IMG/VR virus record: IMGVR_UViG_2585427760_000005
Source: a virus
Lineage: Duplodnaviria; Heunggongvirae; Uroviricota; Caudoviricetes
DNA: 20,784 bases
Direction: 5' to 3' (one strand)
Below, piece by piece: positions 2,066 to 20,784 of the stretch; within the stretch, counting starts at the first letter, position 1; every line of letters begins with the position of its first letter. A model generated the notes under the pieces. That model searched no databases and was not told where the DNA came from. It saw only the letters and a list, made by a program, of their open reading frames with translations. The position numbers and the translations under genes were made by a program.

Positions 2066-2116
2066 AGCAGCTGATGATGGTGCTATAACCATTATGGTTT
2101 CTATTAATACTCGCCA

Positions 2117-2139
2117 GCCCTTATCTCTCTGATAAGGGC
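2117..2139. terminator. Hairpin between convergent genes (9-bp stem GCCCTTATC/GATAAGGGC, 5-nt loop); putative bidirectional terminator
   Basis: Perfect inverted repeat lying between the 3' ends of the 527..2065 (+) and 2155..2778 (-) genes. No clear T-tract. Confidence 0.4.
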
Positions 2140-2154
2140 CCTAATTAATGCTAG

Positions 2155-2778
2155 TTAATTATTACTACACCCAAACGATCTATAACCGTCATCAAAGTTC
2201 TTGCTTTTCACTTTGGTGAGATAATCAATTCGATTCAGTAAATCGTCGGGATAAATATCATTAAGAATATCATCACGATTCAGGGTATATTTACCATTAG
2301 AAGGATACTGTACTAGGTGCTGTCCCTCTTCGGGAGTTATACTTAATGCGCTGCACCATGCCGAGGTGATCATAGTTCTTAACGTATCTTCATCAAGATT
2401 GAAATCCCCTAAGTGGTAGTAAGCATCCTTGTTCAGAAACAGAAATACGTGAAAATGACGCTTACCATTCTGGGTAAATTCCCTCACCCACGCATAGCGG
2501 AGCGTATTCGGGTGTACCCGTTTACCTTCTTTACGCTTGCGCTGTTCATCTGCTGCCAGTTTGGCTTTCAGTGAATTGGTAAATCTTGATATAGATCCTG
2601 AATCAGTATTAGCGATACAGGAAATAGTATCACCATTATCCAGCATAACCGGGTCATGCAGATCCACCCGTATTGCCAGTGTACGTCCGTGTTCTTTAAC
2701 AGATTTTGTAATAACATCGATAATCCTTTCTTTGTATGATTTAACATGACTGCCATACTCGCTATCGTAGATATTCAT
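2155..2778 (-). CDS. YagK/YfjJ-family protein (CP4-type prophage-island protein of unknown function)
   Basis: 207-aa ORF with a GGGGTG RBS 8 nt upstream. It sits downstream of the alpA/yfjI-like genes as in E. coli CP4-57, and its size matches YagK-like members. Family assignment is by synteny and recollection. Confidence 0.55.
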   Translation of the reverse strand: MNIYDSEYGSHVKSYKERIIDVITKSVKEHGRTLAIRVDLHDPVMLDNGDTISCIANTDSGSISRFTNSLKAKLAADEQRKRKEGKRVHPNTLRYAWVREFTQNGKRHFHVFLFLNKDAYYHLGDFNLDEDTLRTMITSAWCSALSITPEEGQHLVQYPSNGKYTLNRDDILNDIYPDDLLNRIDYLTKVKSKNFDDGYRSFGCSNN

Positions 2779-3002
2779 AATAATTCACCCCTCGATGGAT
2801 AACAGTCATCGCATTACTGGCTATGGCCTACTAGTGATATATATACAGGCATGGTTAATTGCAATATAATAACTATCCGACACTGAATTTTAGAAAAATA
2901 GTAGCCACAGCCTACGATGACTGATTGAAAGTTACTCTTTAATTAGTTGTAATGAAGATAGGTTAATAAAACAATTATTGCGTCCTATCTTTGTTCTGTT
3001 CG

Positions 3003-4415: not shown

Positions 4416-4545
4416 AGATACCTCTCATTCTATTAATTTAATAAATAATTCAGCGAAATGGCTATTCTGCTATTAATAGCGGAAATAGCAGGATGACTAC
4501 CGACAATCCGATGACAGCAATTGAGTATGAATTCATGTAGCATCC

Positions 4546-4758
4546 TCAAATAAGTTTGCTGCGTTGCGATAGCCATTCTTCAATCTCTGATTCAACCCAT
4601 CCAACAGATTTCACTCCGAGCATTCGCTTTTTGGGGAAGGAAGCATCGTAACGTGGTGATTTGGGGTTCAACCAATCGTAGATTGTTGCTCGTGCCATAC
4701 CAGTTTTTTGGATAACAGCAGGTAAGCGGAGTATCCTAACGGTTGATGGATTATTCAT
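4546..4758 (-). CDS. alpA: AlpA-family transcriptional regulator / excisionase-like small DNA-binding protein
   Basis: 70-aa product MNNPSTVRILRLPAVIQKTGMARATIYDWLNPKSPRYDASFPKKRMLGVKSVGWVESEIEEWL... is near-identical in pattern to E. coli AlpA (70 aa) as I recall it. AGAGG RBS upstream. Confidence 0.9.
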   Translation of the reverse strand: MNNPSTVRILRLPAVIQKTGMARATIYDWLNPKSPRYDASFPKKRMLGVKSVGWVESEIEEWLSQRSKLI

Positions 4759-4883
4759 GCTTGATTGCCTCTTATTAGTTCATTTTGGTTGTAGAAAGAT
4801 TAGCGGCAAGCATCAATGCAAAAAATCCGTGTACCAAAAAAACATTTTTTACAACACTTAACTAATTGATATTTGGTGTATTT

Positions 4884-5762
4884 ATGTTGTCAGCGATTGA
4901 GTTTTGCGAAGAAATTAGTCAAAAATCGGATTGGCTTGCTGGGCATATGGTCGAATGTGATTGGGACATATATGTTGATCTGCTCAGCGAAAGGTATCCC
5001 GTGATACAGAAGGAACTAAGCGAGATGCGAGATCAATTCTGGAATTCTGATAAGGTAGGAACACGTGTGATTTTGTACAGTGATCCATCTCGTAAGGAGT
5101 ATAAATATTGTACTGTTGACGGAGTGGAGCAATTAAAAGAAGAATATACAGAAGTATATGATCCAGCTCAGGAATGCTGGAAACAGTTAAAATCACGTAT
5201 TTTCAGGGAAACGTTTTGTCATCTTATTCAGGATGATTTTTTAATTAATGATGTGTTTAAGTCACATCTATTTTTTGCCTCAATGTCTTATCAATGGGCA
5301 AAATCAGTTATGTCGGAGAATGAATGTGTCGCTATTAAAGCGTTCATTAAGTCAGCTGAATTATTTGATAGATGTATTGGTATGTCATGGTTTCATGTTT
5401 CTGTATGTACCCAAAAAAAATTATCACATGTTAGAGCTAAGGCCGGAAAACAAGGTGGGAACAGTAAATCAGAAGTATATCGAATAATTCAAGATAAGCT
5501 TGTTTATTTGATCAATAACTCCGTACCTGAAGGTGGGTGGAAAAGTAAAGCAGCTGCGGTGAATGACCTCATTGACCCCTTATGGAAATTTGTCGAAGAG
5601 TCAAATTTTGAAATTAATAATCAAAGTAAAAAATATCGGATATCAACAATGAGCCCTGATGCATTGGCAGATACCATTATAAAAAACTGGTCAAGAAATA
5701 TTGAGAGTATCAAATTGGCTTTCGATAATACGGTTACTAGAAAAAAGAAAACCAAAGGGTAA
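4884..5762 (+). CDS. Hypothetical protein in the yfjH position (between integrase and alpA, divergent from alpA); possible island regulator
   Basis: ORF of about 293 aa from the ATG at 4884 (the track starts at a TTG at 4866). AT-rich with no recognisable motif. Position is equivalent to yfjH in CP4-57 and to the repressor slot of PICI-like islands. Confidence 0.5.
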   Translation: MLSAIEFCEEISQKSDWLAGHMVECDWDIYVDLLSERYPVIQKELSEMRDQFWNSDKVGTRVILYSDPSRKEYKYCTVDGVEQLKEEYTEVYDPAQECWKQLKSRIFRETFCHLIQDDFLINDVFKSHLFFASMSYQWAKSVMSENECVAIKAFIKSAELFDRCIGMSWFHVSVCTQKKLSHVRAKAGKQGGNSKSEVYRIIQDKLVYLINNSVPEGGWKSKAAAVNDLIDPLWKFVEESNFEINNQSKKYRISTMSPDALADTIIKNWSRNIESIKLAFDNTVTRKKKTKG

Positions 5763-5820
5763 AATTCCGTATTACCTATAGGTGAGTTATCAGCACCCAT
5801 AATGGGTGCTGATAAAGGAT

Positions 5821-7062
5821 TCATCCTACAAGACGTATTCCCCTAACCCCACTATTCACGATACTGCCGCTATCTGCTGCTTTAACAAAATCAGCCCACC
5901 ACTGCATCATCGGTCGTCGTTGCTCAAGATAGTCACTTCGATTGTAAGCGCGACGTACCTCATTCTTATCTACATGAGCAAGTGCAGCCTCAATAACATC
6001 AGGCGGAAATCCTTCCTCATTGAGTGCCGTACTGGCAATAGAACGTAAGCCGTGTGAAACGAGTACGCCTCCTAAACCAGCACGCTTAAGGGCTGCATTT
6101 ACTGTCTGGCTGTTCATCGGCTGGGTAGGCTTAATGCGACTGGGAAAGATAAATTCTCGACCACCGCTGAGAGACTTCATTATTTCCAGAATAGCGAGAG
6201 CTCCATCAGATAATGGAACCGTATGCTCCCGATTCATCTTCATTCGAGCAGCTGGAATTTTCCATTCGCTAGCATCGAAATCGATCTCATCCCATCGAGC
6301 CTCAGCAGCTTCGGCAGGGCGGGTGATGGTGAGAAGCTGCCACATGAACAGGCATCGTGTGGACAGGCTGATACTTGCCGTACGCATAGTCTGCATTAGC
6401 TGTGGAAGTTGACCTGGGTGGATGCTTGGCATGTTTTTCTTTTGCGGTTTCTCGAATGCTTTCCCGATGTTTACGCTGGGAACCGCATCAATCAGGCCTG
6501 TGTTCTGCGCATAAATCATGACTTCGTTAATACGCTGACAAAGGCGGCGGACTGTCTCTAATGCACCTCTGGCCTGAACCGGATGAACTGCTTTAACCAA
6601 AGTATGAGCCTTAATCTCAGTGACACTGATATCACCGATTGCCGGGAGAACATCCCTCTCAAGCGAGCGCCAGATATCGTCGGCATAGTCCTCTGTTACG
6701 CTGGCTTTCTTCACATTCCACCAACGCTCGGCAACTAACCGGAAAGTGTTGGTTTTGGCCTCTTGAGAATTTCTCACCTGTTCTTTCTGATGTTCCTGAG
6801 GATCAATGTCTTTCGCCAACAAAGCTCGAGATTCAGCTCTGAGTTTACGCGCATCAGAAAGGGAGACGGCTGGATAGGCTCCGAAGCTCTGCTTGGTTCG
6901 CTGCTTGGTCAGAGGTCGATAGTAACGGAACTGCCAGAGCTTACTACCGCTGGACTTGATTAGCAGAGTAAGCCCGTCACCATCATACAGCTGGTAATCG
7001 GCATCTTTAGGTTTGGCGGCTTTGATTTCCGTATCGGTTAACGGCTTGGTTTTTCTTGCCAT
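5821..7062 (-). CDS. intA: Tyrosine integrase, P4/CP4-57 IntA type (DUF4102 N-terminus plus phage-integrase catalytic domain)
   Basis: 413 aa from MARKTKPLTDTEIKAAKPKD, with a GGAG RBS about 8 nt upstream of the ATG at 7062. The C-terminal region has the R...HxxR...Y catalytic pattern (HGLRSIAST...AHVD...RRAY). Lies next to the ssrA att fragment as intA does in K-12. The track start at 7098 falls inside an upstream hairpin and is less likely. Confidence 0.85.
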   Translation of the reverse strand: MARKTKPLTDTEIKAAKPKDADYQLYDGDGLTLLIKSSGSKLWQFRYYRPLTKQRTKQSFGAYPAVSLSDARKLRAESRALLAKDIDPQEHQKEQVRNSQEAKTNTFRLVAERWWNVKKASVTEDYADDIWRSLERDVLPAIGDISVTEIKAHTLVKAVHPVQARGALETVRRLCQRINEVMIYAQNTGLIDAVPSVNIGKAFEKPQKKNMPSIHPGQLPQLMQTMRTASISLSTRCLFMWQLLTITRPAEAAEARWDEIDFDASEWKIPAARMKMNREHTVPLSDGALAILEIMKSLSGGREFIFPSRIKPTQPMNSQTVNAALKRAGLGGVLVSHGLRSIASTALNEEGFPPDVIEAALAHVDKNEVRRAYNRSDYLEQRRPMMQWWADFVKAADSGSIVNSGVRGIRLVG

Positions 7063-7185
7063 GGGGAGTCTCCATGCGTTTAGGCCCAACGAAAACAATA
7101 GAGCTTTTCGTTGGGCCTATCAATGGGCCTAAAAGGTTCGGATTTAATTAGTTCTCTTCGGACTTCGCGGGACAAATTCAGGGCA

Positions 7186-7426: not shown

Positions 7427-8618
7427 TTACTTATCCTCGATGGCGTCATACTCAAGCAAGTTATCCATACACTTCTCGAGTTTGTAGAAGTCGGTGAGGG
7501 GATAGAGGTGAACAATACTATCGTCAAAATTCTTGATCCCTGACAGGCGCTCAGTGCGTCTCAAAAACCTTGACGCTGACTTTACTTTGTCTCCCTCATC
7601 CGGCTCGCATGTGTATTCTAGTGTTTTGAGTACTTGCCAAGATACGGGAGGAGTTAGCTTAAACATTTTAATTAATTTTGGACAAAAATCCTTTGAGATA
7701 GTTTGTTGGTAAGTAACTTTTGGTGGGAGTACAACGTTGATTGACTTGTCTCCATCATTTGTTTTAACCATTTTAGTTGATCTGTAAGCGATACCAACAA
7801 TGTTAGAATTTCCTCGGCGGCTGATCCATTGCATTAATAAATTAGGGATGATGTATTCCTGAGTAAACGATGTGCTGCTATTTTTTTTTTCTAAAGTTAC
7901 AAGCATAAATTAAAGGCATCAAACAAATATATGACATTTTTGTAAGATATGGCATTTCGTCGTCATTAACTATGCCATAAAATCGTGAGTATAGAATTTC
8001 GGAAGTGAAGTCTAATATTTTAGAATCCTTTTCATTTGATGAGTAAGAGGATATATATAATTTATCAAAGTCTGGCTTATCCATTTCCAGCCAGCAGACA
8101 TACAAGGAAGAGCCAAGATATAAGCAGGGTAAGCCTGCAACAGAGTATCTTTGCGCATTGACTAGATGCCGCATAGAGAAAGGAATATGAAACATCTCTT
8201 TTCTATCTTTTATAGATGAGTCGGATTTTCTGACCCGGAAAAGAGGCTTGGATTCGTTGCATATCTTATTAAGTGGCGTGGATATGTGGTGAATATAACG
8301 AAATGTTGCATTGTCAGAAAATGTACTGTCAAAAATGTCATACGCTGATTTTATGTCACCAGATAAAAATTTTTCCAAGGAAAGTACTATGCCAAAATAT
8401 ATCTCACTTATTTTTTCTAAACGTCGGCCAATTCTCTTGGATAATTCATTGTCATTGTTTTCAGCATAGTCATTTATAATGTTGAAGTAGATTTGACATT
8501 TATTCTTGAAATCACTGATTATGTCGGACTCTACCGTAAATGGTAAGTTTAATCTTTTTTCTTTGACTGTAAGTGAAAATATTTTATTTAAGCCGTCAGA
8601 TAAACTCTCGCTTCCCAT
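7427..8618 (-). pseudogene. AT-rich gene with RES-domain-like motif (candidate NAD-targeting toxin/defense effector), split into 246-aa and 159-aa ORFs by a +1 frameshift in an A10 homopolymer (T10 at 7881-7890 on the + strand)
   Basis: ORFs 7878..8618 and 7427..7906 overlap by 29 nt in adjacent frames. ORF1 ends ...NFRKKK* inside the A10 run, and a run of A9 would read ...RKKNSSTSF... straight into ORF2 for a roughly 400-aa product. The motif FRVRKSD...RYSVAGLPCLYLGSSLYVCWLEM resembles the RES-domain core. An AAGGA RBS overlaps the stop codon of the upstream integrase. Confidence 0.45.
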
Positions 8619-9652: not shown

Positions 9653-10285
9653 TTAGAGGCTCTTGATCACTTTTACAGCACGTCCGATAGCTTCAATATC
9701 ATCTACTGAGCATTCAAACGAAGATTCATCCTGATGGACCGCTAATTTGTTTCCTGGAAGCCGTGTTAATTTCACGATGCTTTTAACCCCATCAATATCA
9801 ACGAGCCATAGTCCATTTGTAATCTGTTTCAGTGATTGATCGACTACATAACTTTCATGAGCATTGTTGACGAATAAACAGTGAACAGGTTCATTCGGGA
9901 GAATGCTGTGATCGAGGTGAATATCCTCATTATCAGTTAAGCAGCCATTTTCTAGCGTTACTTGCTTGATCGATGGCGCGACAAGCTTTGCAAGAGGTCG
10001 AATTGTAGGTGAGGTCTCATTTTGAGGTTTTTTTACAGCCTCGTTTTGAGCGTACATCTCACCATGGCCAGTAGCCAACCACAGTAAAGAAACCCCCGTT
10101 TCGAGCGCGCACTGAATTACCCAGTCAGCAGGGAAGCTATCACGTAACAGTCTGTTTGACATAGTGCTTTTTGAAACGCCAAGCTGCTCACTTAGAGCCT
10201 GCTTTGTCTTAAGCCCATAAGCCTTTTGCAGCCGATCGATAGCTTCTCTACCCCCTGAATCGGCACCCATTGAAATACTCGCCAT
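9653..10285 (-). CDS. cI: Phage CI-type immunity repressor (186 CI-like, HTH N-terminal domain)
   Basis: A GGAG RBS 7 nt upstream supports a start at 10285 (MASISMGADSGG...). The segment AYGLKTKQALSEQLGVSKSTMSNRL...CALETGVSLLWLATGHGE is HTH-like and resembles 186 CI. Located between int and a divergent apl-like gene. The track start at 10375 would run through the operator region. Confidence 0.7.
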   Translation of the reverse strand: MASISMGADSGGREAIDRLQKAYGLKTKQALSEQLGVSKSTMSNRLLRDSFPADWVIQCALETGVSLLWLATGHGEMYAQNEAVKKPQNETSPTIRPLAKLVAPSIKQVTLENGCLTDNEDIHLDHSILPNEPVHCLFVNNAHESYVVDQSLKQITNGLWLVDIDGVKSIVKLTRLPGNKLAVHQDESSFECSVDDIEAIGRAVKVIKSL

Positions 10286-10406
10286 TGAAAAACTCCGTTT
10301 GACAACCTTGAATCGGGATCGTAATGTTGCGTTGACTCTTGAATTGAGGTCTTGAGAGTCGACATAAAACGACATAAAACGAATCTAAACCGAGAGATAC
10401 TGCACT
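10286..10406. promoter_or_regulatory. Lysis-lysogeny switch region between divergent cI and apl-like genes; contains an exact 10-bp tandem direct repeat GACATAAAAC x2 (10361-10380)
   Basis: Intergenic region between the divergent repressor and early operon, with the tandem repeat visible in sequence. Promoter and operator positions were not resolved. Confidence 0.4.
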
Positions 10407-10652
10407 ATGAGCACTGAGATTTCAATTCGTGTACCAAAAGTGATAGCGACGCCAGCCGAATTTGCTGAATGGGAAGGCTATTCCCGTGGTTCGGTTTATC
10501 AGATGATTCATAACGGTAAACTGGCTAACTACATTGAAAAGAAAGAAAAAAACAAAGGCCGTGTATTCATCCTTTACCTTAAGTACAAAAAGGAGCAAGC
10601 GCGTAAAAACATGGACCAATCAGCCTTTAACTACAACGTAGTTGTCGGTTAG
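10407..10652 (+). CDS. Apl/Cox-like small excisionase-regulator (first gene of the early lytic operon)
   Basis: 81-aa ORF divergent from cI, basic C-terminal half, in the position of 186 apl / P2 cox. Confidence 0.55.
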   Translation: MSTEISIRVPKVIATPAEFAEWEGYSRGSVYQMIHNGKLANYIEKKEKNKGRVFILYLKYKKEQARKNMDQSAFNYNVVVG

Positions 10653-10687
10653 TAAGTTCAATTATGAGAACTTTCTAAGGGGGTTAC

Positions 10688-11197
10688 ATGTTTGATTATA
10701 AGATTTCCAAACATCCGCATTTTGACGACGCTTGCCGCGCTTTTGCGTTGCGTCACAACATGGCGAAGCTGGCAACCAGCGCCGGAATGAACGTCCAGAC
10801 TCTGCGCAACAAGTTGAACCCGGACCAGCCGCACCAACTGACGCCGCCGGAAATCTGGCTGCTGACTGATATCACTGAGGATTCCACGCTGGTTGATGGT
10901 TTCCTGGCCCAGATTCACTGCCTGCCGTGTGTGCCGCTGAATGAAGTGGCAAAAGAAAAAATGCCGCAGTACGTCCTCAAAGCCACTGCCGAGATCGGCC
11001 GTGTTGCTGCAAGTGCGGTTTCAGGTGTTCAACTGAACGCGACCACCCGCCGCCAGGTTGTTGAAAGCGTCAATTCTGTTACCCGTCTAATGGCTCTTAC
11101 CGCTATTTCACTGCAGGCGCGGTTACAAGCTAACCCGGCAATGGCCAGTGTTGTCGATACCGTGACGGGACTTGGCTCTTCGTTTGGGCTGAGCTGA
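10688..11197 (+). CDS. cII: CII-like regulatory protein (phage 186 CII type)
   Basis: 169-aa ORF with an AAGGGGG RBS, immediately after the apl-like gene. 186 CII is 169 aa as I recall. Call rests on synteny and size. Confidence 0.6.
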   Translation: MFDYKISKHPHFDDACRAFALRHNMAKLATSAGMNVQTLRNKLNPDQPHQLTPPEIWLLTDITEDSTLVDGFLAQIHCLPCVPLNEVAKEKMPQYVLKATAEIGRVAASAVSGVQLNATTRRQVVESVNSVTRLMALTAISLQARLQANPAMASVVDTVTGLGSSFGLS

Positions 11198-11198
11198 G

Positions 11199-11405
11199 GT
11201 GTATATGCTGAACAATGAACCATCTTTTGCATCACTGCTTGTTAAGCAAAGCCCGGCCCCGCACTACGGTCACGGCTGGATCTCTGGAACGGATGGCAAG
11301 CGCTGGCATCCATGCCGCTCGCAGGATGCGCTGCTGGCTGACCTGTCCACATCAAAACAGGGGAAACCATGGCTATTGAAGGCGATGCTGCGACTGTTCC
11401 GCTAA
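11199..11405 (+). CDS. Hypothetical small early protein (fil/dhr region of 186-like phages)
   Basis: 68-aa ORF with a GAGGTG RBS. Confidence 0.45.
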   Translation: MYMLNNEPSFASLLVKQSPAPHYGHGWISGTDGKRWHPCRSQDALLADLSTSKQGKPWLLKAMLRLFR

Positions 11406-11710
11406 GTGCTGGCCTCCGCCTTAATGGGTTAAACCACATCGCGGAATTAAGGGCGAAAGTGTTTGGCTTAAATACTGATTCAGAACTAGGGCGCTTTATT
11501 AGCGATATGCGGGACCAACGGGATATTAACCATGAGCAGAATAAACGCGCACTAGCCGCAATATTCTTTATGGCAAAAATTCCGGCGGAACGTCATAGCG
11601 TCAATGTTAGTGAGCTGACGACTGACGAAAAGCGGGAGCTGATTAAAGCAATGAACCATTTCCGTACAGTGGTGAGCTTATTTCCAACTCGGCTAGCCAT
11701 GCCGAATTAA
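11369..11710 (+). CDS. Hypothetical early protein
   Basis: 113-aa ORF overlapping the previous ORF by 37 nt in another frame. Start is uncertain. Confidence 0.4.
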   Translation: MAIEGDAATVPLSAGLRLNGLNHIAELRAKVFGLNTDSELGRFISDMRDQRDINHEQNKRALAAIFFMAKIPAERHSVNVSELTTDEKRELIKAMNHFRTVVSLFPTRLAMPN

Positions 11711-11777
11711 CCAACCACAGAAATTAAAGGCGTAAACCCGCCGGGCATTCCTTTGCTCAAATTCAGGAGAACGAACG

Positions 11778-12011
11778 ATGCGAAATATTGAAACCCGAAT
11801 CACCAAAAGCGGCCCAGATGATGCTGGCCTTAACCAGCTGCTGACGGATGCGCGTATGGAAGAACGCCGCGCACGTGCTGCTGCAATGGCTGCCCGCCTC
11901 GATAGCCTGGCTAGCCGTATTACTTCCCGTCAGCTTAACCATGTTGAGGCGGCAGAGCTGCTGCGTGTCGCAGCTGAAAACATCCAGAACGAAGCGCAGG
12001 AGATCCACTGA
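11778..12011 (+). CDS. Hypothetical early protein (Ala/Arg-rich, probably helical)
   Basis: 77-aa ORF with an AGGAG RBS. Its stop overlaps the next start (TGATG). Confidence 0.5.
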   Translation: MRNIETRITKSGPDDAGLNQLLTDARMEERRARAAAMAARLDSLASRITSRQLNHVEAAELLRVAAENIQNEAQEIH

Positions 12012-12238
12012 TGGCTGATTCTATGGACCTTGTACAGCAGCGCGTTGAAGAAGAACGCCAGTGCCATATCCACCACGCCCGCAGCCGAAAGGCTGGGGCT
12101 TCTTCTCTTGAGTGCGAGAGCTGCGAAATTGTCATTCCGGCAGAACGCCGTGCTGCAGTTCCGGGCTGTGATCTTTGCGTAACCTGCCAGGAAATTGCAG
12201 AGCTGAAAGGCAAGCATTACGTAGGGGGTGCTGTATGA
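12011..12238 (+). CDS. TraR/DksA-family C4 zinc-finger protein
   Basis: 75-aa product with CxxC...CxxC (CESCEIVIPAERRAAVPGCDLCVTCQE), the pattern of phage TraR-like proteins. Confidence 0.6.
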   Translation: MADSMDLVQQRVEEERQCHIHHARSRKAGASSLECESCEIVIPAERRAAVPGCDLCVTCQEIAELKGKHYVGGAV

Positions 12239-12519
12239 CTACCGAGAAACTGACTAATCCGCTGACTGATAGCGAATTATCGCGACTGATTTGGGGCCTG
12301 AAAGCGGAAGGGTTTCACCCGCGCCTATTGGCTGGCTTAGTAGAGCTGCAGCAGCGCCGTCAGGCCAATGCAGAGATTGATATGGCACCAATAAAAATTC
12401 CTCCTGCCGTATTCGATTTGATTTATCAGGAATGCGAGGGGTTTGTAGATTGTCCAGCCAATCCTCAAGTGATTTGGGAAGCCTGCCGTGCAGCGATGCT
12501 GAAAGGCGGTGCTGAATGA
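12235..12519 (+). CDS. Hypothetical early protein
   Basis: ATG at 12235 overlaps the upstream stop (ATGA). About 94 aa. The track start at 12175 lies inside the previous gene. Confidence 0.5.
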
Positions 12520-12815
12520 ATATCAAAGCCCATACCTTAAAAATTGCACCGAAACACCTTAATGATGTTATGGCGGGGAAAAAAAAAGCTGAATTAAGAC
12601 GGGATGATGATCGCGGTTATAAAGCCGGTGATGTTCTTGTTTTGTGTGAATGGAAACATGGCAAATATACCGGGCGCGAATGGACGGCTGTAATCACTCA
12701 TATCCTGCCAGTTTGCGACGTTATTAATAATGTTGATGGCTGGGTGATGCTCTCTATTCGTTCACTGAATCCAATTGATGCAATGTTCTATATGCTTTCA
12801 GGAGGTGCTGCATGA
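12516..12815 (+). CDS. DUF3850/ASCH-like small protein
   Basis: 99-aa ORF, ATGA-coupled to its neighbours. The pattern [24 protein letters not shown]...GDVLVLCEW resembles DUF3850 (ASCH-fold) proteins. Confidence 0.45.
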
Positions 12816-13657
12816 GCACCATCCTGAAATGGGCTGGCAATAAAACTGCCATCATGCCGGAATTGAAAAAACATCTGCCAGCAGGCCAGCGCCTTGTTGA
12901 ACCTTTCGCGGGTTCGTGCGCTGTCATGATGGCGACAGACTATCCTCATTATCTTGTCGCAGATGTTAATCCTGATCTGATAAATCTGTATCAAGCAATT
13001 AAAGATGACGTTAACGGATTTGCTCACTTGGCTGAGCGGGTTTTTTCTAAGTTCACAACGGAAGAAGCCTATTATAAATGCCGTCAGTATTTTAATACTG
13101 CGCCTTTGGATTACATGGACAAGGCGGCTTATTTTCTTTTCCTTAATCGCCATTGTTATCGCGGGTTATGCCGTTATAACCAGCGCGGCCTGTTTAACGT
13201 CCCGTACGGTAATTACAAAAAACCTTATCTGCCCGTTAATGAAATACGTGCATTTGCCGAAAAGGCAAAGCGTGCCACCTTCATTTGCGCCAACTATGAG
13301 GAAACATTGGCAATGCTGCAGCCGGGGGATGTTATCTACTGCGACCCTCCGTATGACGGTACATTTTCCACTTACCACACTGACGGATTTACTGAGGATG
13401 ATCAGTATCATCTGGCGTCTATCCTTGAACGTCGCTCATCAGAAGGTCATCCGGTCATCGTGTCCAATAGCGACACATCCCTGACCCGTTCACTTTATCG
13501 TAATTTTACCCACCATCGCATCACTGCAAAACGCAGCATGGGCGTGGCTGCCGGTGAAGGTAAATCTGCAGCTGAAATCATCGCGACGAAATCAGCTGTT
13601 TGCTTCGGTGTAGATCTTGCCAGCTGTACAAACCGTTATGTTGAGGTGCGCGTATGA
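12812..13657 (+). CDS. dam: DNA adenine methyltransferase, Dam family (orphan, phage-encoded)
   Basis: 281 aa with [48 protein letters not shown] and the catalytic DPPY motif ([10 protein letters not shown]), collinear with E. coli Dam. Confidence 0.88.
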
Positions 13658-14973
13658 ACCATTCCGCAGCAGTAATTGTGCCTACAGATATCAGTGTGAT
13701 GGTTCGTGAAATAGAGGTTTCATACAACCACTTTCTGAATGAATTTCGTATTCCAGCTGATCACAAAATTGTCGTTAACTTCTCTGCCGGAAAAGACAGC
13801 ACGACAACAGCGGCAATTGCACATCATCTTTTTGGTGATCGCGTACAAAACGTAATGGCTGATACAGACAATGAACATGAATTAACCGTCGACTTTGCGC
13901 GAAATATTCATCATCAAATTGGTTGTAAGCCTGTGCAGATAGTTAAGCGTATATACACCGAGGTTGAATTTGAACGTCGCCGTAAATCGCTTAATGAGCG
14001 CTGGTCAAAGCGTCAGGCGATCCGCATGGGCGCTTATCGTGGCGTAATTATGCCATCACTGGCGAGATCAGATACCAAATTTGGTCAGGAATGGCTACGT
14101 ACTGCTGAACGCTGGGGGATTCAGTTTGAAACGGCTCTGGAGGCTGCTCTTTCAGTCATGCACCCGACTGGTAATAGCTTTCTCGATGCCGCTCTGTTGC
14201 ACGGCAAATTCCCGATGATGCGCGATCGCTTTTGTACTGATGAACTCAAGATTCAAATCGCGTTCGATGCGGCAATAAAACCACTTCTTGATGATGGTGA
14301 GGTGGTCGTTCAGTGGTCTGGAGTGCGTGCAGATGAGTCCGACAAACGCGCCGGTTACGCAAGATTTGCACACGATGAACGCGATCCAAACTTTCTCTAT
14401 AACTTCCTGCCAATCCATAAATGGACGGCGGCTAATGTTTTCGCCTTACATAAATATTTCGGTATTAAACCAAACCCACTTTACCTGCAAGGCGCTGACC
14501 GTGTTGGCTGCATGAACTGTGTTTTATGTACCAAAGAAGAAATTGCGCAGACTGCAGCACGCTGGCCTGAGCATATCGAAAAACATCATGAGTGGGAGAA
14601 AAAAGTACGGCTGGCATCGCGCTGGGTTCACTGGATGAGCATCGGCACAGTTAGCCAGTCATGGATGCGTGCTCAGTTAGGCGTTAGAGATGTTATCCGG
14701 TTTGAACTCGATGAAGTGACGGGAGAGGAAGTAGCGCGACGTAGGCGCTATCCAGTCAATCTAGGCCAGAATGTGAAACTGTATGGACTGGAGCCAGATG
14801 TTCAGCACATCGACTGGTCAGGATTCTATGGTCCGCGTGGAAATATGGGGGCTCCGTCAGCGCTTGATGTTGTCGAATGGGCCAAGACTGGTCGTGGTGG
14901 CAAGGTCTACGACTTAGTCAAAGCCAGTATGGACACTTCAGTGTGCTCATCACGATATGGTCTTTGTGAATGA
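13654..14973 (+). CDS. PAPS-reductase-like (PP-loop ATP pyrophosphatase superfamily) protein, phage-encoded; possible DNA-modification enzyme
   Basis: 439 aa with the PP-loop motif [10 protein letters not shown] near the N-terminus and a cysteine cluster (CMNCVLC) later. ATGA-coupled to dam upstream and to gene A downstream. Confidence 0.65.
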
Positions 14974-17387
14974 GCTTTTATCCATGGAACGCGCCAAAAA
15001 AGGCGATAAATCCAAACACGGACCCGGCGGAAGTTGCGCCGGTGTCCGCGCTTTCAAACCTGATTACTCTGTATGCCGCTGATAATGAGCAGAACCAGCA
15101 GCGCCGGGAAGAAATGAGTGATGAGGTCTGGGAACGCTATTTTTATAACGAAGCCCGTGATCCAGTTCTGCGTGAAATGGAGCAGGACCGGCTGATCAGT
15201 GGTGCCAAAATGGCACGCGAGCAGCAGAGGTTTAACCCCGATCTGGTCATTCTGGCAGATGTAAGCGCCGAACCATCACACATCAGCAAACCTCTGCTTG
15301 AGCGCATTAAATATTTCCATAGTCTGGGCCGTCCACAGGCTTATTCCCGTTATCTGCGTGAAACCATCAAGCCATGCCTTGAACGGCTGGCGCGTGCGCG
15401 TGACAGCCAGGTGTCTGCTTCATTCCGATTCATGGCTAGCCATGAAGGGCTGGAAGGGCTGCTGGTTCTGCCTGAAATGAATCAGGATCAGGTCAAACGC
15501 CTATCCACGCTGGTTGCGGCTCATATGAGCATGTGTCTGGAAGCTGCCTGCGGTGATCTCTATTCCACTGACGAAGTGAAGCCGGAAGAAATCCGCCAGG
15601 CGTGGGAACAGGTTGCAGCGGAGGCGATGCGCCTTGATGTTATCCCGCCAGCGTTTGAGCGTCTGCGCCGTAAGAAACGCCGCCGCAAGCCTGTGCCATA
15701 TGAGCTTATTCCCGGTTCGCTGGCGCGTATGCTGTGCGCGGACTGGTGGTATCGCAAATTGTGGCAGATGCGCTGTGAATGGCGCGAGGAGCATCTGCGC
15801 GCGGTATGTCTGGTTAACAAAAAGGCATCGCCGTACGTTAGCTATGAGGCGGTGATCCATAAGCGTGAGCAGCGCCGCAAATCGCTGGAGTTTTTCCGTT
15901 CGCATGAACTGACCAATGAGCAGGGTGATACGCTGGATCTGGAAGATGTGGTAAACGCCAGCGCCAGCAACCCGGCCCATCGCCGTAACGAGATGATGGC
16001 CTGTGTGAAAGGGCTGGAGCTGATCGCGGAAATGCGCGGCGACTGTGCTGTATTTTACACCATCACTTGCCCGTCACGCTTCCACGCCACGCTCAACAAT
16101 GGCAGGCCAAATCCGAAATGGACCAGCGCCACAGTACGACAGAGCAGTGATTATCTGGTTGATACGTTCGCGGCTTTCCGTAAGGCCATGCATAAAGTCG
16201 GGTTGCGCTGGTACGGTGTGCGAGTGGCTGAGCCTCATCATGATGGCACTGTGCACTGGCACCTGCTGTGCTTTATGCGCAAGAAACACCGCAAAGCTAT
16301 CACGGAACTGCTGCGCAAGTTTGCCATTCGTGAGGATCGCGAGGAGCTGGGAAACAATACCGGGCCGCGCTTTAAGTCCGAGCTAATCAATCCGCGCAAA
16401 GGCACGCCAACCAGCTACATCGCTAAATACATCAGTAAGAATATTGATGGGCGCGGCCTGGCTAATGAAGTCAGCAAGGAAACCGGCAAATCATTACGCG
16501 ATAACGCGGAGAACGTGAACGCCTGGGCATCACTGCACCGCGTCCAGCAATTCCGCTTTTTCGGTATTCCAGGTCGCCAGGCTTACCGCGAGCTGCGCCT
16601 GCTGGCGGGCCAGGCTAAACGCGACCTTCCGCCATTAAAACCCGTTCCCGGGAAACCTGAATTGACGCCAGAGATTCTGGCGGCCCTTGCAAATGCGCGG
16701 CCTGTTATCGGCAATCCGCGTCTTGATGCTGTGCTGGCTGCGGCTGATGCCGGTTGCTTTGCCACTTACATCATGGCGCAGGGCGGCGTGCTGGTCCCTC
16801 GCAAACATCACCTGGTCAGAACGGCCTATGAGCTGAACGATGAGCCGAGCGCCTACGGCGATCATGGTATCCGTATTTATGGCGTCTGGTCCCCTATTCA
16901 GGAAGGGCGAATTTGTACGCACGCGGTGAAATGGAAAATGGTTCGTAAGGCCGTTGACGTTGACCTGCCGGAGGCGTCAGCCGACCAGGGCGCTTGCGCC
17001 CCTTGGACTCGTGGCAATAACTATCCCCTTGTGGAAAATCTGAACAATTCAGACGCTGAAACAGGGGGGAATACTCCAGATATAACCGTTATGGATGAGC
17101 AGGAACTGCAGGAGTATCTGCACGGCATGGGAAGAAAAGAGCTTAAAGAGCTAAACACCCGTTTACGCCTGGTAAAACCGAAGCGCCGCAAAGGATATAA
17201 ACAGGAAATTGACGGGCAACAGCGGCTGCAGCTGGGTTATGAGCTGCAGTCCAGGGGCTTTGATGGCAGTGACAACGAGATCGATTTGCTTCTGAGTGGC
17301 GGCAGTATTCCATCCGGGGCAGGGCTGCGCCTTTTTTACCGTAACCAGCGGCTGCAGGAAGATGATAAATGGCGTCAGTGGTATTGA
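14970..17387 (+). CDS. Replication initiation endonuclease (P2 gpA family, rolling-circle nickase)
   Basis: 805-aa ORF as the last gene of the coupled early operon. Contains the paired-tyrosine motif YIAKYISK (Y-x3-Y), typical of P2 A-type nickases. Size is comparable to P2 A (761 aa). Confidence 0.8.
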
Positions 17388-17465
17388 TTTTACTGACGAT
17401 TTGATCGCCATCAGAACTATCTACTTGAAACTAAAAAAGAGTTTTACAATTCGAAATAACAGTTA

Positions 17466-17485
17466 TACTGTATATGTATACAGTA
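17466..17485 (+). promoter_or_regulatory. LexA (SOS) box TACTGTATATGTATACAGTA overlapping a putative promoter (TTTACA at 17443-17448, TATACT at 17464-17469)
   Basis: CTGT-N8-ACAG palindrome with 19 of 20 matches to the consensus TACTGTATATATATACAGTA, located about 30 nt upstream of a strong RBS (AGGAGG) and the ATG at 17517. Confidence 0.65.
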
Positions 17486-17516
17486 TTTGTTGGTGGTAGT
17501 AGAGATAGGAGGGAAA

Positions 17517-17705
17517 ATGCAGGATTACCTTTTGGAGTCTTTGAAACTCCAGCGTATTGATTTTTTTATCAAGCTTGTAGCGGCTAGTGAATGTAGTGAT
17601 GAAGAGAAGCGACTTGCTATCCAGTGGGTTTCTGAGCTGACGGATGAGTTGATGGCGAAAATCAGGAGTCATGAATACACTCGCTCTATGGATCTTCCCG
17701 GTTAG
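17517..17705 (+). CDS. Small SOS-regulated protein (62 aa) in the position of the 186 tum antirepressor; function unverified
   Basis: AGGAGG RBS 4-5 nt before the ATG at 17517, with a LexA box upstream. The track ORF starts earlier at 17487. Confidence 0.5.
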   Translation: MQDYLLESLKLQRIDFFIKLVAASECSDEEKRLAIQWVSELTDELMAKIRSHEYTRSMDLPG

Positions 17706-17718
17706 CAACAGGAACGTT

Positions 17719-17749
17719 GCTGACGTGAGAATCAGATTCTCGCGTCAGC
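17719..17749. other. 31-bp near-perfect palindrome (15-bp arms, one G-T mismatch, 1-nt spacer) just downstream of the small SOS gene
   Basis: GCTGACGTGAGAATC-A-GATTCTCGCGTCAGC, with a smaller hairpin (AGCAAC...GTTGCT) at 17703-17720 immediately before it. No T-tract on either strand. Confidence 0.35.
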
Positions 17750-17995
17750 GAGGTTGAACAACGAGCAAGGTGAGGTGTTCAGCTTTTAGTGGTTTTTTTG
17801 GTATCAAAGCACTATATGTAGCTATCTGAGCAGTGCCGGTTGAATTACGATCAGTTTTTCTTGTCGTAGTCGCCAAAATGAGATAGATAAACGGTTCCAC
17901 AAGATGTTCGCGACCCGGCATTGTTCTATAATCAGGTCATAACAAAAAGAATTAGCAGCAATGCCACATGTATGTAGGCACAGCGAGGAGGTCGT

Positions 17996-19079: not shown

Positions 19080-19268
19080 CATACGTCATGCAGTTGCATG
19101 AAAACCACTACACAAAGCGGGCAGGCGTGGCGGGGATACGAGCGCGCGCTGGCACTTTGGATGATCGCTTCACCTGTATGAATGACCACCTTGAAAACTT
19201 GATTGTTCTGGACTTAAGTATGTACTTTATATTCGGAATAATCCGAATTGCTGAAAAGGATTCATGTG

Positions 19269-20290
19269 ATGATAGAAGAATTAACGATCAGAAATGCGGG
19301 TTCATATACTGGGCCAGAACAAAAATTGCATGGTTTATCTACATTTAATTATCTTTATGGAGCTAATGGTGCAGGTAAAACTACTATTAGTAAAATAATT
19401 AATGACCCAGATAATTATCCCGACTGCTTAATTCAGTGGAAAAACGCCAATAAGTTAATTAGTTATGTTTATAATAAGGATTTTGTTGACGATAATTTTA
19501 GTCAAGATAAAATAAAAGGTGTTTTTACCCTAGGGAGCGATATTAAAGGTGCACAAGAGAAGTTGATTTTATTAAATGAGGAAAGAAGTAAGCTTCAAGA
19601 AAAAATAACTACTAAACAAAAATTGTTAAAGGGTAGCTCTGATGATGTGGGTGTTATTAATGAACTGATTGAACAAGATAAAACTTTTAAAGACATTTGT
19701 TGGAAGCAAAAGCAAAAGCATGATGAGGTTTTTTTCAAGGCTTTTGAAGGCTTAAGGAACAGTACTGAAAAATTTAAAGCTCGAGTCCTTTCTGAATTCG
19801 AACAGAACACTGCAGCTTTACTACCACTAAGTGAACTTACTGAAAAGTGCCGTACAGTATTCTCGGATGAACTAGTTTCATACACGCCATTATCTATTCC
19901 TAAATTTGATGGGTTTAAATCTATTTTAAATCATGATATATGGCAGGAGAAAATACTGGGGAAAAAAGATGTCAGCGTTGCTGATTTGATTAGCCTATTA
20001 AATAATAGTGACTGGGTAAAAAGAGGTTTGGAATATTTTCACGAATCGAAGCCCACGTGCCCATTTTGTCAGCAGAATGTCAGTGATGATATTTTTCATA
20101 ATCTCTCATCTTACTTTGATGAAACATATAATAAAAAACAACAACTAATAAATAGATTGCTTTCTGAGTATCATAATCATATACAACGCTTAAAATGGGA
20201 ACTTGATAACATTAGGGATGCAAAGTTACCATTTGTCGATATCGAGACATTTGAAGACAAATCTAATATCATCATTTCTCTTTTAATTAG
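19269..20290 (+). pseudogene. ABC-type (AAA_13/RloC-like) ATPase, N-terminal half with Walker A and coiled-coil CxxC hook-like motif; 3' part removed or displaced by an IS5 insertion at 20290/20291
   Basis: MIEELTIRNAGSY...NYLYGANGAGKTTISKII (Walker A), a K/E/L-rich coiled-coil segment, then CPFCQQ. The ORF runs into the IS5 terminal repeat at 20291, so the last roughly 36 codons of the track ORF (to 20399) are IS5-derived read-through. An AAGGA RBS lies before the ATG at 19269. Confidence 0.65.

Positions 20291-20784
<494 letters not shown>

What the first reader, a model, noticed from the sequence alone, without database searches (positions are those of the whole stretch)
12812..14973. Translationally coupled Dam methylase and PAPS-reductase-like pair inside the early replication operon
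A clear Dam-family N6-adenine methyltransferase (DPPY motif) is ATGA-coupled to a 439-aa PP-loop (SAGKDS) protein with a cysteine cluster, and both are embedded between early genes and the replication nickase. Phage-borne PP-loop enzymes next to methylases are poorly characterised. The pair could form a DNA modification or anti-restriction module (self-protection of replicating phage DNA), or something else entirely.
Basis: partly seen in the sequence, partly recalled or inferred. Interest (0 to 1): 0.45.

Follow-up and report, generated by a model that had tools for sequence, protein, structure and literature searches.

The report
Phage Dam methylase plus Orf84-like enzyme
A 186-like E. coli prophage carries, just before its replication gene, an ordinary Dam DNA methylase followed by a long version of the phage 186 Orf84 "PAPS-reductase-like" enzyme. 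This family sits next to DNA methylases in many phages and probably puts sulfur into phage DNA to dodge host defences, but its chemistry is untested.

Summary
Window 12812-13657 encodes a Dam-family N6-adenine methylase: DPPY motif, TIGR00571 at 297 bits, and a full-length alignment to E. coli Dam. Window 13654-14973 encodes a 439-aa PP-loop protein (SAGKDS) of the APS/PAPS-reductase fold. Both lie in the early operon of a 186-like prophage, directly before replication gene A.

The pair is not new. Identical proteins are already annotated in E. coli. The PP-loop protein is a long form of phage 186 Orf84 (phrog_424).

The ATGA overlap is weak evidence for a partnership, because five consecutive genes are chained this way. 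Sibling prophages carry Dam alone or the Orf84-like gene alone in the same slot.

The family is nevertheless linked to DNA methylases. A methylase lies directly adjacent in 25 of 78 viral loci, drawn from four methylase families. One Aeromonas protein fuses MT-A70 to it, and a published Vibrio phage PAPS-Dam fusion confers anti-Dnd activity.

It fails the CysH, APS-reductase, DndC and QueC thresholds. It keeps a canonical PP-loop, APS-reductase-type Fe-S cysteines and an invariant C-terminal cysteine.

My best reading is a counter-defence DNA sulfur-modification enzyme riding beside an orphan Dam. This reading is inferred, not shown. Interest is moderate.

The parts
12175..12519 (+). Unknown 114-aa ORF, first link of the ATGA chain. 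No family hit.
   Evidence: Found with DUF3850 only in the window and its identical copy L039.
12516..12815 (+). DUF3850 / ASCH-like small protein (PUA-like fold). Overlaps the Dam start by ATGA. Not a conserved partner of the pair.
   Evidence: Pfam DUF3850 9.5e-20 and ASCH 1.8e-4; phrog_986. Absent from all other Dam-PAPS loci.
12812..13657 (+). Orphan Dam-family (D12 class) N6-adenine DNA methyltransferase, probably GATC-specific.
   Evidence: Pfam PF02086 1.5e-69. TIGR00571 297.5 bits, above cutoff; the E. coli Dam equivalog NF008152 scores 271 against a cutoff of 441. PADLOC orphan MTase 5.7e-102. Alignment to 2g1p.
13343..13354 (+). DPPY catalytic motif IV of Dam (aa 178-181).
13654..14973 (+). 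439-aa long-form member of the phage 186 Orf84 family (phrog_424). It is a PP-loop ATP-pyrophosphatase domain of the APS/PAPS-reductase fold, with family-specific N-terminal helix, basic insertion, beta-hairpin region and Cys-bearing C-terminal tail.
13783..13800 (+). PP-loop SAGKDS (aa 44-49). Family consensus is SGGKDS.
   Evidence: S, G, D and S each in 134-136 of 142, K in 128 of 142.
13942..14133 (+). Basic insertion (aa 97-160) inside the PAPS_reduct domain. Present in only 54 of 142 family representatives; pI 10.9, net charge +7. Candidate nucleic-acid contact (inference).
   Evidence: The Pfam match, aa 38-290, spans the whole 175-position profile. phrog_25779 fragment..
14233..14235 (+). 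Cys194 in the RFCTxELK motif, invariant in 142 of 142.
14509..14520 (+). Cys286-x-x-Cys289 (RVGCMNC). Aligns with the Fe-S-ligand CxxC of APS reductases. PAPS reductases lack it.
   Evidence: C286 in 142 of 142 and C289 in 141 of 142. Profile alignment to 2goy (SIGCEPC) and 7lhr (SIGCAPCT), against SVGD in 1sur and 6vpu.
14944..14970 (+). C-terminal tail CSSRYGLCE (aa 431-439), with Cys431 (118 of 142) and Cys438 (139 of 142). The family-wide ending is YGLC[EG].
14970..17387 (+). Replication initiator/nickase gpA. Its start overlaps the stop of the PP-loop gene (ATGA), and no good Shine-Dalgarno sequence precedes it.
   Evidence: Pfam Phage_GPA 5.3e-130. Junction sequence. The 186 record notes that translation to the end of orf84 appears necessary for translation of A.

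Best explanation
The window holds the early (pR-type) operon of a 186-like Peduoviridae prophage of E. coli. The slot between the TraR/DksA gene and replication gene A is a variable cassette site, and here it holds four cassettes.

Two of them are the finding:
1. An orphan Dam methylase that most likely methylates GATC on replicating phage DNA.
2. A long-form Orf84-family enzyme.

I think the Orf84-family enzyme most likely works like DndC, SspD or BrxP. The canonical PP-loop would use ATP to activate a DNA substrate. An Fe-S centre (held by Cys194, Cys286 and Cys289) and the mobile C-terminal cysteine(s) would deliver sulfur obtained from the host cysteine desulfurase. Phage DNA would then carry a phosphorothioate-type (or thio-base) mark and escape PT-dependent or other modification-sensing defences.

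The neighbouring methylase is a second, independently assorting counter-restriction cassette. In some lineages (the fusions) it may also tether the enzyme to DNA.

The ATGA overlaps pass ribosomes down the whole chain to gene A. They are an operon feature, not a sign of a Dam-PAPS complex.

Shown here: gene identities, fold, conserved residues, synteny, methylase linkage, and independent assortment of the two genes. Inferred: ATP use, the Fe-S cluster, sulfur transfer, DNA as substrate, and the anti-defence role.
For: - Identity and fold.
- The best defence-library hits are phosphorothioation enzymes: SspD 1e-19, BrxP 3e-14, DndC 7e-6.
- Expression context: early lytic operon, immediately before the replication nickase. 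No promoter-like site on the + strand in 10200-17800.
- Methylase linkage: directly adjacent and co-oriented in 25 of 78 viral loci (7 D12, 4 MT-A70, 13 C5, 1 PF05869). A methylase ORF lies within the flanks in 36 of 78. Searches gave Pfam confirmation.
- phiE125 has a Cfr9I-like methylase overlapping its PAPS gene.
- Fusion of MT-A70 to the PAPS-like protein in an Aeromonas prophage.
- Published experiment: a Vibrio podophage gene with PAPS and Dam domains is needed to escape host Dnd (bioRxiv 10.1101/2021.05.05.442762). It is cited as a phage PAPS reductase promoting Dnd evasion in PMC13551039.
- PAPS-reductase-domain enzymes install PT in Dnd, Ssp and BREX type 4 (PMC12839542; PMC12707154).
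- The basic insertion, pI 10.9, is compatible with nucleic-acid binding.
Against: - No chemistry was tested.
- The protein scores far below the DndC cutoff (21.9 against 290.4). The SspD match covers only part of that profile.
- No DndD/DndE or SspB/SspC-like partners are in the window. All known PT systems need such partners.
- The Vibrio anti-Dnd protein could not be retrieved, so I could not test whether it belongs to this subfamily. That study also did not establish its mechanism.
- 186 orf84 is recorded as non-essential with unknown function.
- More than half of the loci show no methylase within the fetched flanks. The loci are phylogenetically related, and no random-gene background rate was measured.
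- The 3D positions of the cysteines could not be inspected, because model coordinates are not exposed.
Confidence: 0.42

Rival explanations
1. Methylase-guided two-component modifier. The Orf84-family enzyme has no DNA-targeting subunit of its own. It physically uses the co-encoded or fused DNA methylase (here Dam at GATC) as its sequence-recognition and base-flipping partner, so the two genes form one functional module.
For: - Adjacency to four unrelated methylase families, with a fifth family within the flanks.
- The fusion P0110, where MT-A70 sits N-terminal and leaves the conserved C-terminal tail free.
- The published PAPS-Dam fusion.
- Loci with the PAPS gene flanked by or following two methylases, L099 and L110.
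- No DndDE- or SspBC-like partner is present.
Against: - Dam and the PAPS gene assort independently in the same slot of sibling prophages: TraR-Dam-A, exonuclease-Dam-A, and TraR-PAPS-A in 9 loci.
- phi458 carries a 72%-identical copy with no methylase nearby.
- The partners include both adenine and cytosine methylases, which argues against a shared chemical step.
- ATGA coupling is generic to the operon.
- The hosts are Dam-positive E. coli, so host Dam could substitute. This can be neither excluded nor shown.
Confidence: 0.2
2. The enzyme acts on something other than DNA. One option is tRNA/RNA thiolation of the TtuA/TtcA type. Another is action on a nucleotide or on the host sulfur relay, for example draining persulfide from the host DndC/SspD machinery. 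It may then influence defence or gene expression only indirectly, as with the IbrA-type 'regulator' annotation.
For: - The gene two positions upstream is a DUF3850/ASCH protein that PHROGs labels RNA-binding.
- The phi458 homolog is annotated 'putative transcriptional regulator'.
- The enzyme lacks known DNA-handling partners.
Against: - DUF3850 is not conserved with the gene.
- Repeated adjacency and fusion is to DNA methylases, not to RNA enzymes.
- The gene sits in replication modules across phage types.
- The only experimental datum is anti-Dnd, a DNA-modification defence.
Confidence: 0.15
3. A genuine sulfate-assimilation auxiliary metabolic gene (CysH or APS reductase) that boosts host cysteine supply. 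This is how many phage annotations ('host metabolism', 'cysH') label it.
For: - The Pfam PAPS_reduct hit.
- The nearest solved folds are APS/PAPS reductases.
- Annotations in phage records and papers.
Against: - It scores below every curated threshold: NF002537 46.9 against 154, TIGR02055 39.2 against 235.3, TIGR00434 27.2 against 165.1, TIGR02057 18.4 against 254.2.
- It has a canonical ATP-type SGGKDS where these reductases have a degenerate loop (alignments).
- Its C-terminus is YGLCE, not ECGLH.
- Only about 185-198 of 439 residues match the reductase fold.
- It sits in replication and methylase contexts.
Confidence: 0.04

Closest known systems
Phage 186 Orf84 (CP84; NP_052288.1) and PHROG 424 'phosphoadenosine phosphosulfate reductase'
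   Same: - Homologous: 35.7% identity over aa 40-305 by tblastn; phrog_424 at 1e-64.
- Same position, last gene before A with an overlapping stop/start.
- Same conserved motifs: SGGKDS, ADTGNEH, RFCTxELK, RVGCMPC and the C-terminal YGLCE.
   Different: - The window protein is 439 aa against 334 aa.
- It has an N-terminal helix, a basic insertion at aa 97-160 (present in 54 of 142 representatives) and a beta-hairpin region at aa 331-400 (present in 24 of 142).
- 186 has no Dam next to it.
Vibrio crassostreae podophage 44E38.1 p0018, a PAPS-domain/Dam-domain fusion with anti-Dnd activity (Piel et al. 2022; bioRxiv 10.1101/2021.05.05.442762)
   Same: A phage-encoded PAPS_reduct domain combined with an N6-adenine methylase. 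It is the only experimental phenotype known for such a combination.
   Different: - There it is a single polypeptide with the PAPS domain N-terminal, and the methylase belongs to the PF05869 'Dam' family. Here there are two genes and a D12-class Dam.
- Sequence relatedness to the window protein was not tested, because the sequence was not retrieved.
- The mechanism was not established in that work.
DndC / SspD / BrxP, the PAPS-reductase-like sulfurtransferases of DNA phosphorothioation systems
   Same: PP-loop ATP-pyrophosphatase core, cysteine-based Fe-S features, and detectable profile similarity: SspD 1e-19, BrxP 3e-14, DndC 7e-6 (roles from PMC12707154 and PMC12839542).
   Different: - It scores far below the DndC equivalog cutoff.
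- It has no DndD/DndE, SspB/SspC or BREX partners and no cysteine desulfurase gene nearby.
- It has its own conserved C-terminal tail and insertions.
- It is phage-borne, in an early lytic operon.
Assimilatory APS reductase (P. aeruginosa 2goy, M. tuberculosis 7lhr)
   Different: - Sequence score 39 against a cutoff of 235.
- It has a canonical SGGKDS, a single Cys where APS reductase has CC, and YGLCE instead of ECG[LI]H.
- About 240 extra residues.
E. coli Dam and prophage orphan Dam genes of Felsduovirus / 186-like phages (e.g. Salmonella phage SEN8 gp45)
   Same: - Same family and, at the aligned positions, the same residues at six of the seven E. coli Dam DNA-contact sites checked: K9, Y119, L122, R124, P134 and Y138 match K6, Y116, L119, R121, P131 and Y135 (residue roles are from my memory of the 2g1p paper).
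- Same slot before A in SEN8 and E. coli S1: 77.7% and 78.5% nucleotide identity over query nt 1-808.
   Different: - It is not the host-Dam equivalog (271 against 441 bits).
- N120 is replaced by R117.
- Here it is followed by the Orf84-like gene instead of directly by A.

Membership tests
Dam family site-specific DNA-(adenine-N6)-methyltransferase (TIGR00571 / PF02086) | Profile score above the curated cutoff over the full length | tested here: met
   TIGR00571 297.5 against 114.85 over aa 1-259. PF02086 235 against 22 over profile positions 1-253 of 253.
Dam family site-specific DNA-(adenine-N6)-methyltransferase (TIGR00571 / PF02086) | Catalytic motif IV (D/N)PP(Y/F) and AdoMet motif I (FxGxG-like) | tested here: met
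   DPPY at aa 178-181. EPFAGSCAV at aa 30-38, aligned to EPFVGAGSV of E. coli Dam.
Dam family site-specific DNA-(adenine-N6)-methyltransferase (TIGR00571 / PF02086) | GATC specificity and actual methyl transfer | not testable with these tools
   Six of seven remembered GATC-contact residues are conserved in the 2g1p alignment. GATC is not depleted in the window: 72 against 79.6 +/- 7.7 expected. Activity needs a DpnI/MboI or SMRT assay.
E. coli Dam equivalog (NF008152) | Score above the equivalog cutoff | tested here: not met
   271.4 against 441. It is a paralogous phage Dam, not the host enzyme.
PAPS reductase CysH (NF002537, TIGR00434, TIGR02057) | Score above the curated cutoff | tested here: not met
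   46.9 against 154; 27.2 against 165.1; 18.4 against 254.2.
PAPS reductase CysH (NF002537, TIGR00434, TIGR02057) | C-terminal ECGLH catalytic motif (from established knowledge of CysH) | tested here: not met
   The C-terminus is RYGLCE. A cysteine is present, but in a different and family-specific motif.
Assimilatory APS reductase (TIGR02055) | Score above the curated cutoff | tested here: not met
   39.2 against 235.3.
Assimilatory APS reductase (TIGR02055) | CC...CxxC [4Fe-4S] ligands | tested here: inconclusive
   The CxxC (C286, C289) aligns with SIGCEPC of 2goy and SIGCAPC of 7lhr. Only one upstream Cys (C194) is conserved, where APS reductase has a CC pair. The cluster itself is not testable here.
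DndC (TIGR03183) | Score above the equivalog cutoff | tested here: not met
   21.9 against 290.4, and only aa 187-275 match. PADLOC DndC 7e-6.
DndC (TIGR03183) | Operon partners DndD (ABC ATPase) and DndE | tested here: not met
   None among the window ORFs scanned with Pfam, PHROGs or PADLOC.
SspD (PADLOC PDLC02782) | Full-length profile match and SspB/SspC partners | tested here: not met
   The match is E 1e-19, but its best stretch covers only profile positions 74-212 of 277 (the best of two matched stretches). No SspB/SspC-like genes are present.
QueC (7-cyano-7-deazaguanine synthase) | Score above the cutoff | tested here: not met
   Pfam 17.9 against 22, NF008317 20.5 against 378. The PP-loop region only.
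Phage 186 Orf84 family (PHROG 424) | Profile hit, family motifs including the C-terminal YGLC[EG], and (in P2/186-like phages) position immediately upstream of A | tested here: met
   phrog_424 1e-64. Motif conservation in 142 representatives. PAPS-then-gpA synteny in 16 fetched loci (17 rows less L024 and L034, which lack gpA, plus L001).
Anti-Dnd PAPS-Dam protein of Vibrio phage 44E38.1 | Sequence homology beyond a shared Pfam domain; anti-Dnd phenotype | not tested
   The sequence could not be located in the phage collection. The phenotype needs an experiment.

The most novel reading that the evidence does not exclude
The Orf84 family is a self-contained, phage-specific DNA sulfurtransferase. 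It needs no DndDE or SspBC scanning machinery, because it borrows whichever DNA methylase the phage encodes (or is fused to) as its sequence-reading subunit. It would then write a phosphorothioate or thio-base mark at methylase target sites, here at or beside GATC. That would be a new class of 'methylase-guided' DNA modification and a portable way for temperate phages to counterfeit host PT epigenetic marks.
Probability: 0.15. Interest if true: 0.75.

Novelty: new member of a known kind. Interest (0 to 1): 0.4.

Why it matters
Phage 'PAPS reductases' are among the most commonly mis-filed phage genes. PHROGs and many papers label them as sulfur-metabolism or 'host metabolism' genes. This window gives a clean E. 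coli 186-like example.

The family reaches 1,290 clusters (50% identity) at E <= 0.001, and 147 at E <= 1e-30. It can be argued not to be CysH: it has its own invariant cysteines and C-terminal tail, and it repeatedly travels with or fuses to DNA methylases.

If it does install sulfur in phage DNA, it would explain how temperate phages cross Dnd/Ssp/BREX-4 barriers. It would also give a minimal phosphorothioation or thiolation enzyme in a genetically tractable phage, since 186 orf84 is non-essential.

As it stands, the pair itself is already annotated and is an ordinary cassette arrangement. The open question is the biochemistry of the family.

Tried and rejected
- First AF2 model from 23 close homologs was poor (pLDDT 64). 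Its Foldseek hits were generic PP-loop folds at TM about 0.3. I replaced it with a model from a 142-sequence alignment (pLDDT 93).
- The afdb50 fold library was unavailable. BFVD returned only unannotated phage 'PAPS reductases'.
- I tried to retrieve the Vibrio anti-Dnd PAPS-Dam protein for direct comparison. The preprint text gives no accession. A tblastn with a Vibrio phage PAPS protein found a V. crassostreae siphovirus (14E30.2) with a stand-alone gene, not the podovirus fusion.
- I considered DUF3850/ASCH as a third conserved partner and rejected it. It occurs only in the window and its identical copy L039.
- I considered the ATGA overlap as evidence of a Dam-PAPS unit and rejected it. 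It is a five-gene chain, and Dam-A and TraR-PAPS overlaps occur in siblings.
- GATC avoidance or enrichment: none.
- Internal promoters or terminators separating the pair: none on the + strand.
- The L108 upstream ORF and the P0126 N-terminus looked like a further methylase fusion. Pfam gives nothing, or only a sub-threshold Methyltransf_23 hit, so they are not counted.
- A literature search for a biochemical characterisation of phage PAPS-reductase-like proteins found only speculation plus the Piel et al. phenotype.
- The methylase census has no random-gene background and the loci are related, so I treat the percentages as descriptive only.
Full report
**1. What is there**

The window contains two ORFs exactly as described: 12812-13657 (281 aa) and 13654-14973 (439 aa). 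They share ATGA at 13654-13657. A third ORF, 14970-17387, shares ATGA at 14970-14973.

The first ORF is a D12-class Dam methylase.
- Pfam PF02086, E 1.5e-69.
- TIGR00571 at 297.5 bits against a cutoff of 114.85.
- PADLOC 'orphan MTase', 5.7e-102.
- DPPY at aa 178-181.
- It aligns with E. coli Dam (2g1p) over aa 4-259 (E 9e-68). It keeps K6, Y116, L119, R121, P131 and Y135 at the positions of the E. coli DNA-contact residues K9, Y119, L122, R124, P134 and Y138. N120 is replaced by R. The residue roles come from my memory of the 2g1p paper.
- It is not the host-Dam equivalog: NF008152 scores 271 against a cutoff of 441.

The second ORF carries a PAPS_reduct domain (E 3e-20). The match spans aa 38-290 for a 175-position profile, so the domain contains an insertion of roughly 80 residues. 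It hits phrog_424 at 1e-64. The third ORF is the replication nickase gpA (Phage_GPA, 5e-130).

**2. Context**

Upstream lie the genes for a Cox/Apl-like excisionase, CII, DUF5347, DUF2732, a TraR/DksA zinc finger, an unknown ORF and a DUF3850/ASCH protein. On the other strand are CI and an integrase. This is the early operon of a 186-like Peduoviridae prophage.

Only one promoter-like site, on the minus strand, occurs in 10200-17800. Shuffles give 8.1 +/- 2.7. This fits one long transcript.

Both proteins exist with identical sequence in NCBI as E. coli 'DNA adenine methylase' and 'phosphoadenosine phosphosulfate reductase family protein'. Their accession numbers are consecutive, and the proteins were seen on 43 and 47 contigs respectively. 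An IMG/VR contig, L039, encodes an identical protein (100% by tblastn) in the same gene order.

**3. The PP-loop protein is a long Orf84**

Phage 186 Orf84 is 35.7% identical over aa 40-305 and sits in the same place, immediately before A. The 186 record says orf84 is non-essential, of unknown function, and that 'translation to end of orf84 appears necessary for translation of A protein'.

In the window the ATGA overlap is repeated at four consecutive junctions: 12516, 12812, 13654 and 14970. It is a property of the operon. It is not evidence that Dam and the PP-loop protein form a unit.

**4. The two genes assort independently**

Closely related prophages fill the slot between TraR/DksA and A differently.

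| Prophage | Slot content |
|---|---|
| E. coli S1 | Dam only |
| Salmonella phage SEN8 | exonuclease + Dam |
| Phage 186 | exonuclease + DUF5405 + Orf84 |
| This window | orf114 + DUF3850 + Dam + long Orf84 |

Among the fetched loci that carry both gpA and the PAPS gene, six have Dam-PAPS-A and nine have PAPS-A with no Dam homolog detected (seven of them TraR-PAPS-A). A seventh Dam-PAPS locus, L034, ends before A. Escherichia phage phi458 has a 72%-identical copy beside recombination genes with no methylase nearby. DUF3850 and orf114 accompany the pair only in the window and L039.

**5. The family is nevertheless tied to DNA methylases**

I fetched 79 IMG/VR loci and 44 genome loci. I called ORFs and identified methylases with HMMs seeded from Pfam-verified neighbours.

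- In viral loci, 25 of 78 have a co-oriented methylase gene directly adjacent: 10 upstream and 15 downstream. By family these are 7 D12, 4 MT-A70, 13 C5 and 1 PF05869.
- 36 of 78 viral loci have a methylase ORF within the flanks of up to 5 kb (strand was not filtered for this count).
- In genome loci the figures are 4 of 32 directly adjacent and 11 of 32 within the flanks.
- Burkholderia phage phiE125 has a Cfr9I-like methylase overlapping its PAPS gene, followed by a ParB-like gene.
- P0110 from an Aeromonas veronii prophage fuses an MT-A70 methylase to the N-terminus of a 49%-identical homolog. This leaves the conserved C-terminus free.

Two caveats apply. The loci are related to each other, and I measured no random-gene background. 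The percentages are therefore descriptive. The diversity of methylase families and the fusion are the stronger evidence.

**6. Literature**

A Vibrio crassostreae podophage gene encoding an N-terminal PAPS domain and a C-terminal Dam (PF05869-type) domain lies in the two-gene segment that lets the phage escape the host Dnd system. The mechanism is unknown (bioRxiv 10.1101/2021.05.05.442762).

A 2026 paper notes phage PAPS reductases as DndC/SspD homologs in anti-defence hotspots and cites that result (PMC13551039). PAPS-reductase-domain proteins are the sulfur-installing enzymes of Dnd, Ssp and BREX type 4 (PMC12707154, PMC12839542). Other papers file the phage genes under 'host metabolism' or merely remark on the DndC resemblance. 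I found no biochemical study.

**7. Family features**

The exhaustive search found 1,290 clusters (50% identity) at E <= 0.001 and 147 at E <= 1e-30. Most are about 320 aa.

In a 142-sequence alignment:
- The PP-loop is canonical SGGKDS; each of its residues is conserved in 119-136 of 142 sequences.
- C194 (RFCTxELK) and C286 are invariant. C289 is present in 141 of 142, C438 in 139 and C431 in 118.
- The ending W..T.RGG...DL....C.S.YGLC[EG] is family-wide.
- The long form adds an N-terminal helix, a basic insertion at aa 97-160 (pI 10.9, net +7; present in 54 of 142) and a beta-hairpin region at aa 331-400 (present in 24 of 142).

The family profile aligns RVGCmpC with SIGCEPC of 2goy and SIGCAPC of 7lhr. 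This is the Fe-S CxxC. The PAPS reductases 1sur and 6vpu have SVGD there.

**8. Membership**

| Family (model) | Score | Cutoff |
|---|---|---|
| CysH (NF002537) | 46.9 | 154 |
| APS reductase (TIGR02055) | 39.2 | 235.3 |
| DndC (TIGR03183) | 21.9 | 290.4 |
| QueC (NF008317) | 20.5 | 378 |

All scores are and all fail. The best defence-library hits are partial: SspD 1e-19, BrxP 3e-14 and DndC 7e-6. No DndD/E, SspB/C or desulfurase genes are in the window. The protein is therefore a member of the Orf84/phrog_424 family within the PAPS-reductase-like superfamily. It is not a member of any characterised enzyme family.

**9. Mechanism**

The combination of features is that of sulfur-inserting PP-loop enzymes:
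- an ATP-type PP-loop;
- three invariant cysteines placed like APS-reductase and TtuA Fe-S ligands;
- an invariant cysteine on a C-terminal tail;
- early expression with the replication gene;
- methylase linkage;
- the anti-Dnd precedent.

I therefore favour DNA sulfur modification (phosphorothioate-type or thio-base) as a counter-defence, at about 0.4. Dam would be a separate orphan-methylase cassette. E. coli is already Dam-positive and GATC is not avoided (72 sites against 79.6 +/- 7.7 expected). The phage Dam probably tops up methylation during rapid replication rather than providing new specificity. That last point is inference.

The rivals are:
- a true methylase-guided two-component enzyme (0.2);
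- an RNA, nucleotide or sulfur-relay target (0.15);
- a genuine CysH-type metabolic gene (0.04).

**10. Verdict**

The pair is an already-annotated arrangement of two known phage gene families, so it is a new member of a known kind. The residual interest lies in the uncharacterised chemistry of the Orf84 family and its recurrent marriage to DNA methylases.

Noticed in passing
window 518-7098: A second integrative element lies left of the prophage. It has a P4-type integrase (5821-7098, minus strand), a DUF3987 protein (3003-4415, minus), a YagK/YfjJ-family protein (2155-2778, minus) and a 515-aa protein with weak, sub-threshold SIR2-like hits (518-2065; Pfam SIR2_2 1.4e-4, PADLOC Aga_SIR2 3e-6). 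This looks like a satellite or defence island in tandem with the prophage. No tRNA gene is present in the window.
   Followed up: partly
window 19248-20399: A 383-aa ORF downstream of gene A matches only the N-terminal half (positions 1-334 of 732) of the candidate defence ATPase PDC-S06 (E 8e-103) and Pfam AAA_13. It is either truncated or frameshifted, or its C-terminal half is replaced. It sits in the accessory region where P2/186-like phages carry defence cargo.
   Followed up: partly
window 7427-8618: Two overlapping minus-strand ORFs (159 and 246 aa) lie between the two integrase genes. They have no Pfam or PADLOC hit. They are possible prophage-end cargo.
   Followed up: partly
L054 3830-4990 and L076 1858-3288: In two IMG/VR loci the gene immediately upstream of a short-form Orf84-like gene is a reverse transcriptase (the only two Pfam RVT_1 hits among the upstream neighbours; assignment by sequence clustering and the YVDD motif). 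L054 also has an N4/N6 methylase further downstream. From memory, retron Ec67 in a 186-like prophage likewise combines a reverse transcriptase with a Dam.
   Followed up: no
L031 2790-4739: A 649-aa ORF upstream of the PAPS-like gene appears to fuse a C5 cytosine methylase to a C-terminal NPPY-type adenine-methylase domain, presumably the single PF05869 hit among the upstream neighbours. That would make a double methylase next to the PP-loop gene.
   Followed up: partly
L099 4155-7508; L110 3613-5540: Some alphaproteobacterial loci put two methylases around or before the PAPS-like gene. In Paracoccus onchidii, C5 lies upstream and MT-A70 downstream. In Fulvimarina endophytica, MT-A70 and then D12 lie directly upstream.
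   Followed up: partly
L003 (phiE125) 1844-4831: The order is methylase, then PAPS-like gene, then ParB-like gene. From memory, the PAPS-plus-ParB pairing resembles the IbrA/IbrB island of E. coli ECOR-9. This may explain why the phi458 homolog is annotated as a 'transcriptional regulator'.
   Followed up: no
window 10200-17800: Sigma-70 promoter-like sites are strongly depleted: 1 found, on the minus strand, against 8.1 +/- 2.7 in shuffles. This fits a single read-through early transcript.
   Followed up: no
PDB entries 21fy_C (PptA) and 9nto_B (Cap9): The family profile hits the PP-loop region of two recently deposited proteins: 'PptA' (E 1.4e-6) and the CBASS-associated Cap9 (E 8e-6). I could not find literature on PptA.
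   Followed up: partly
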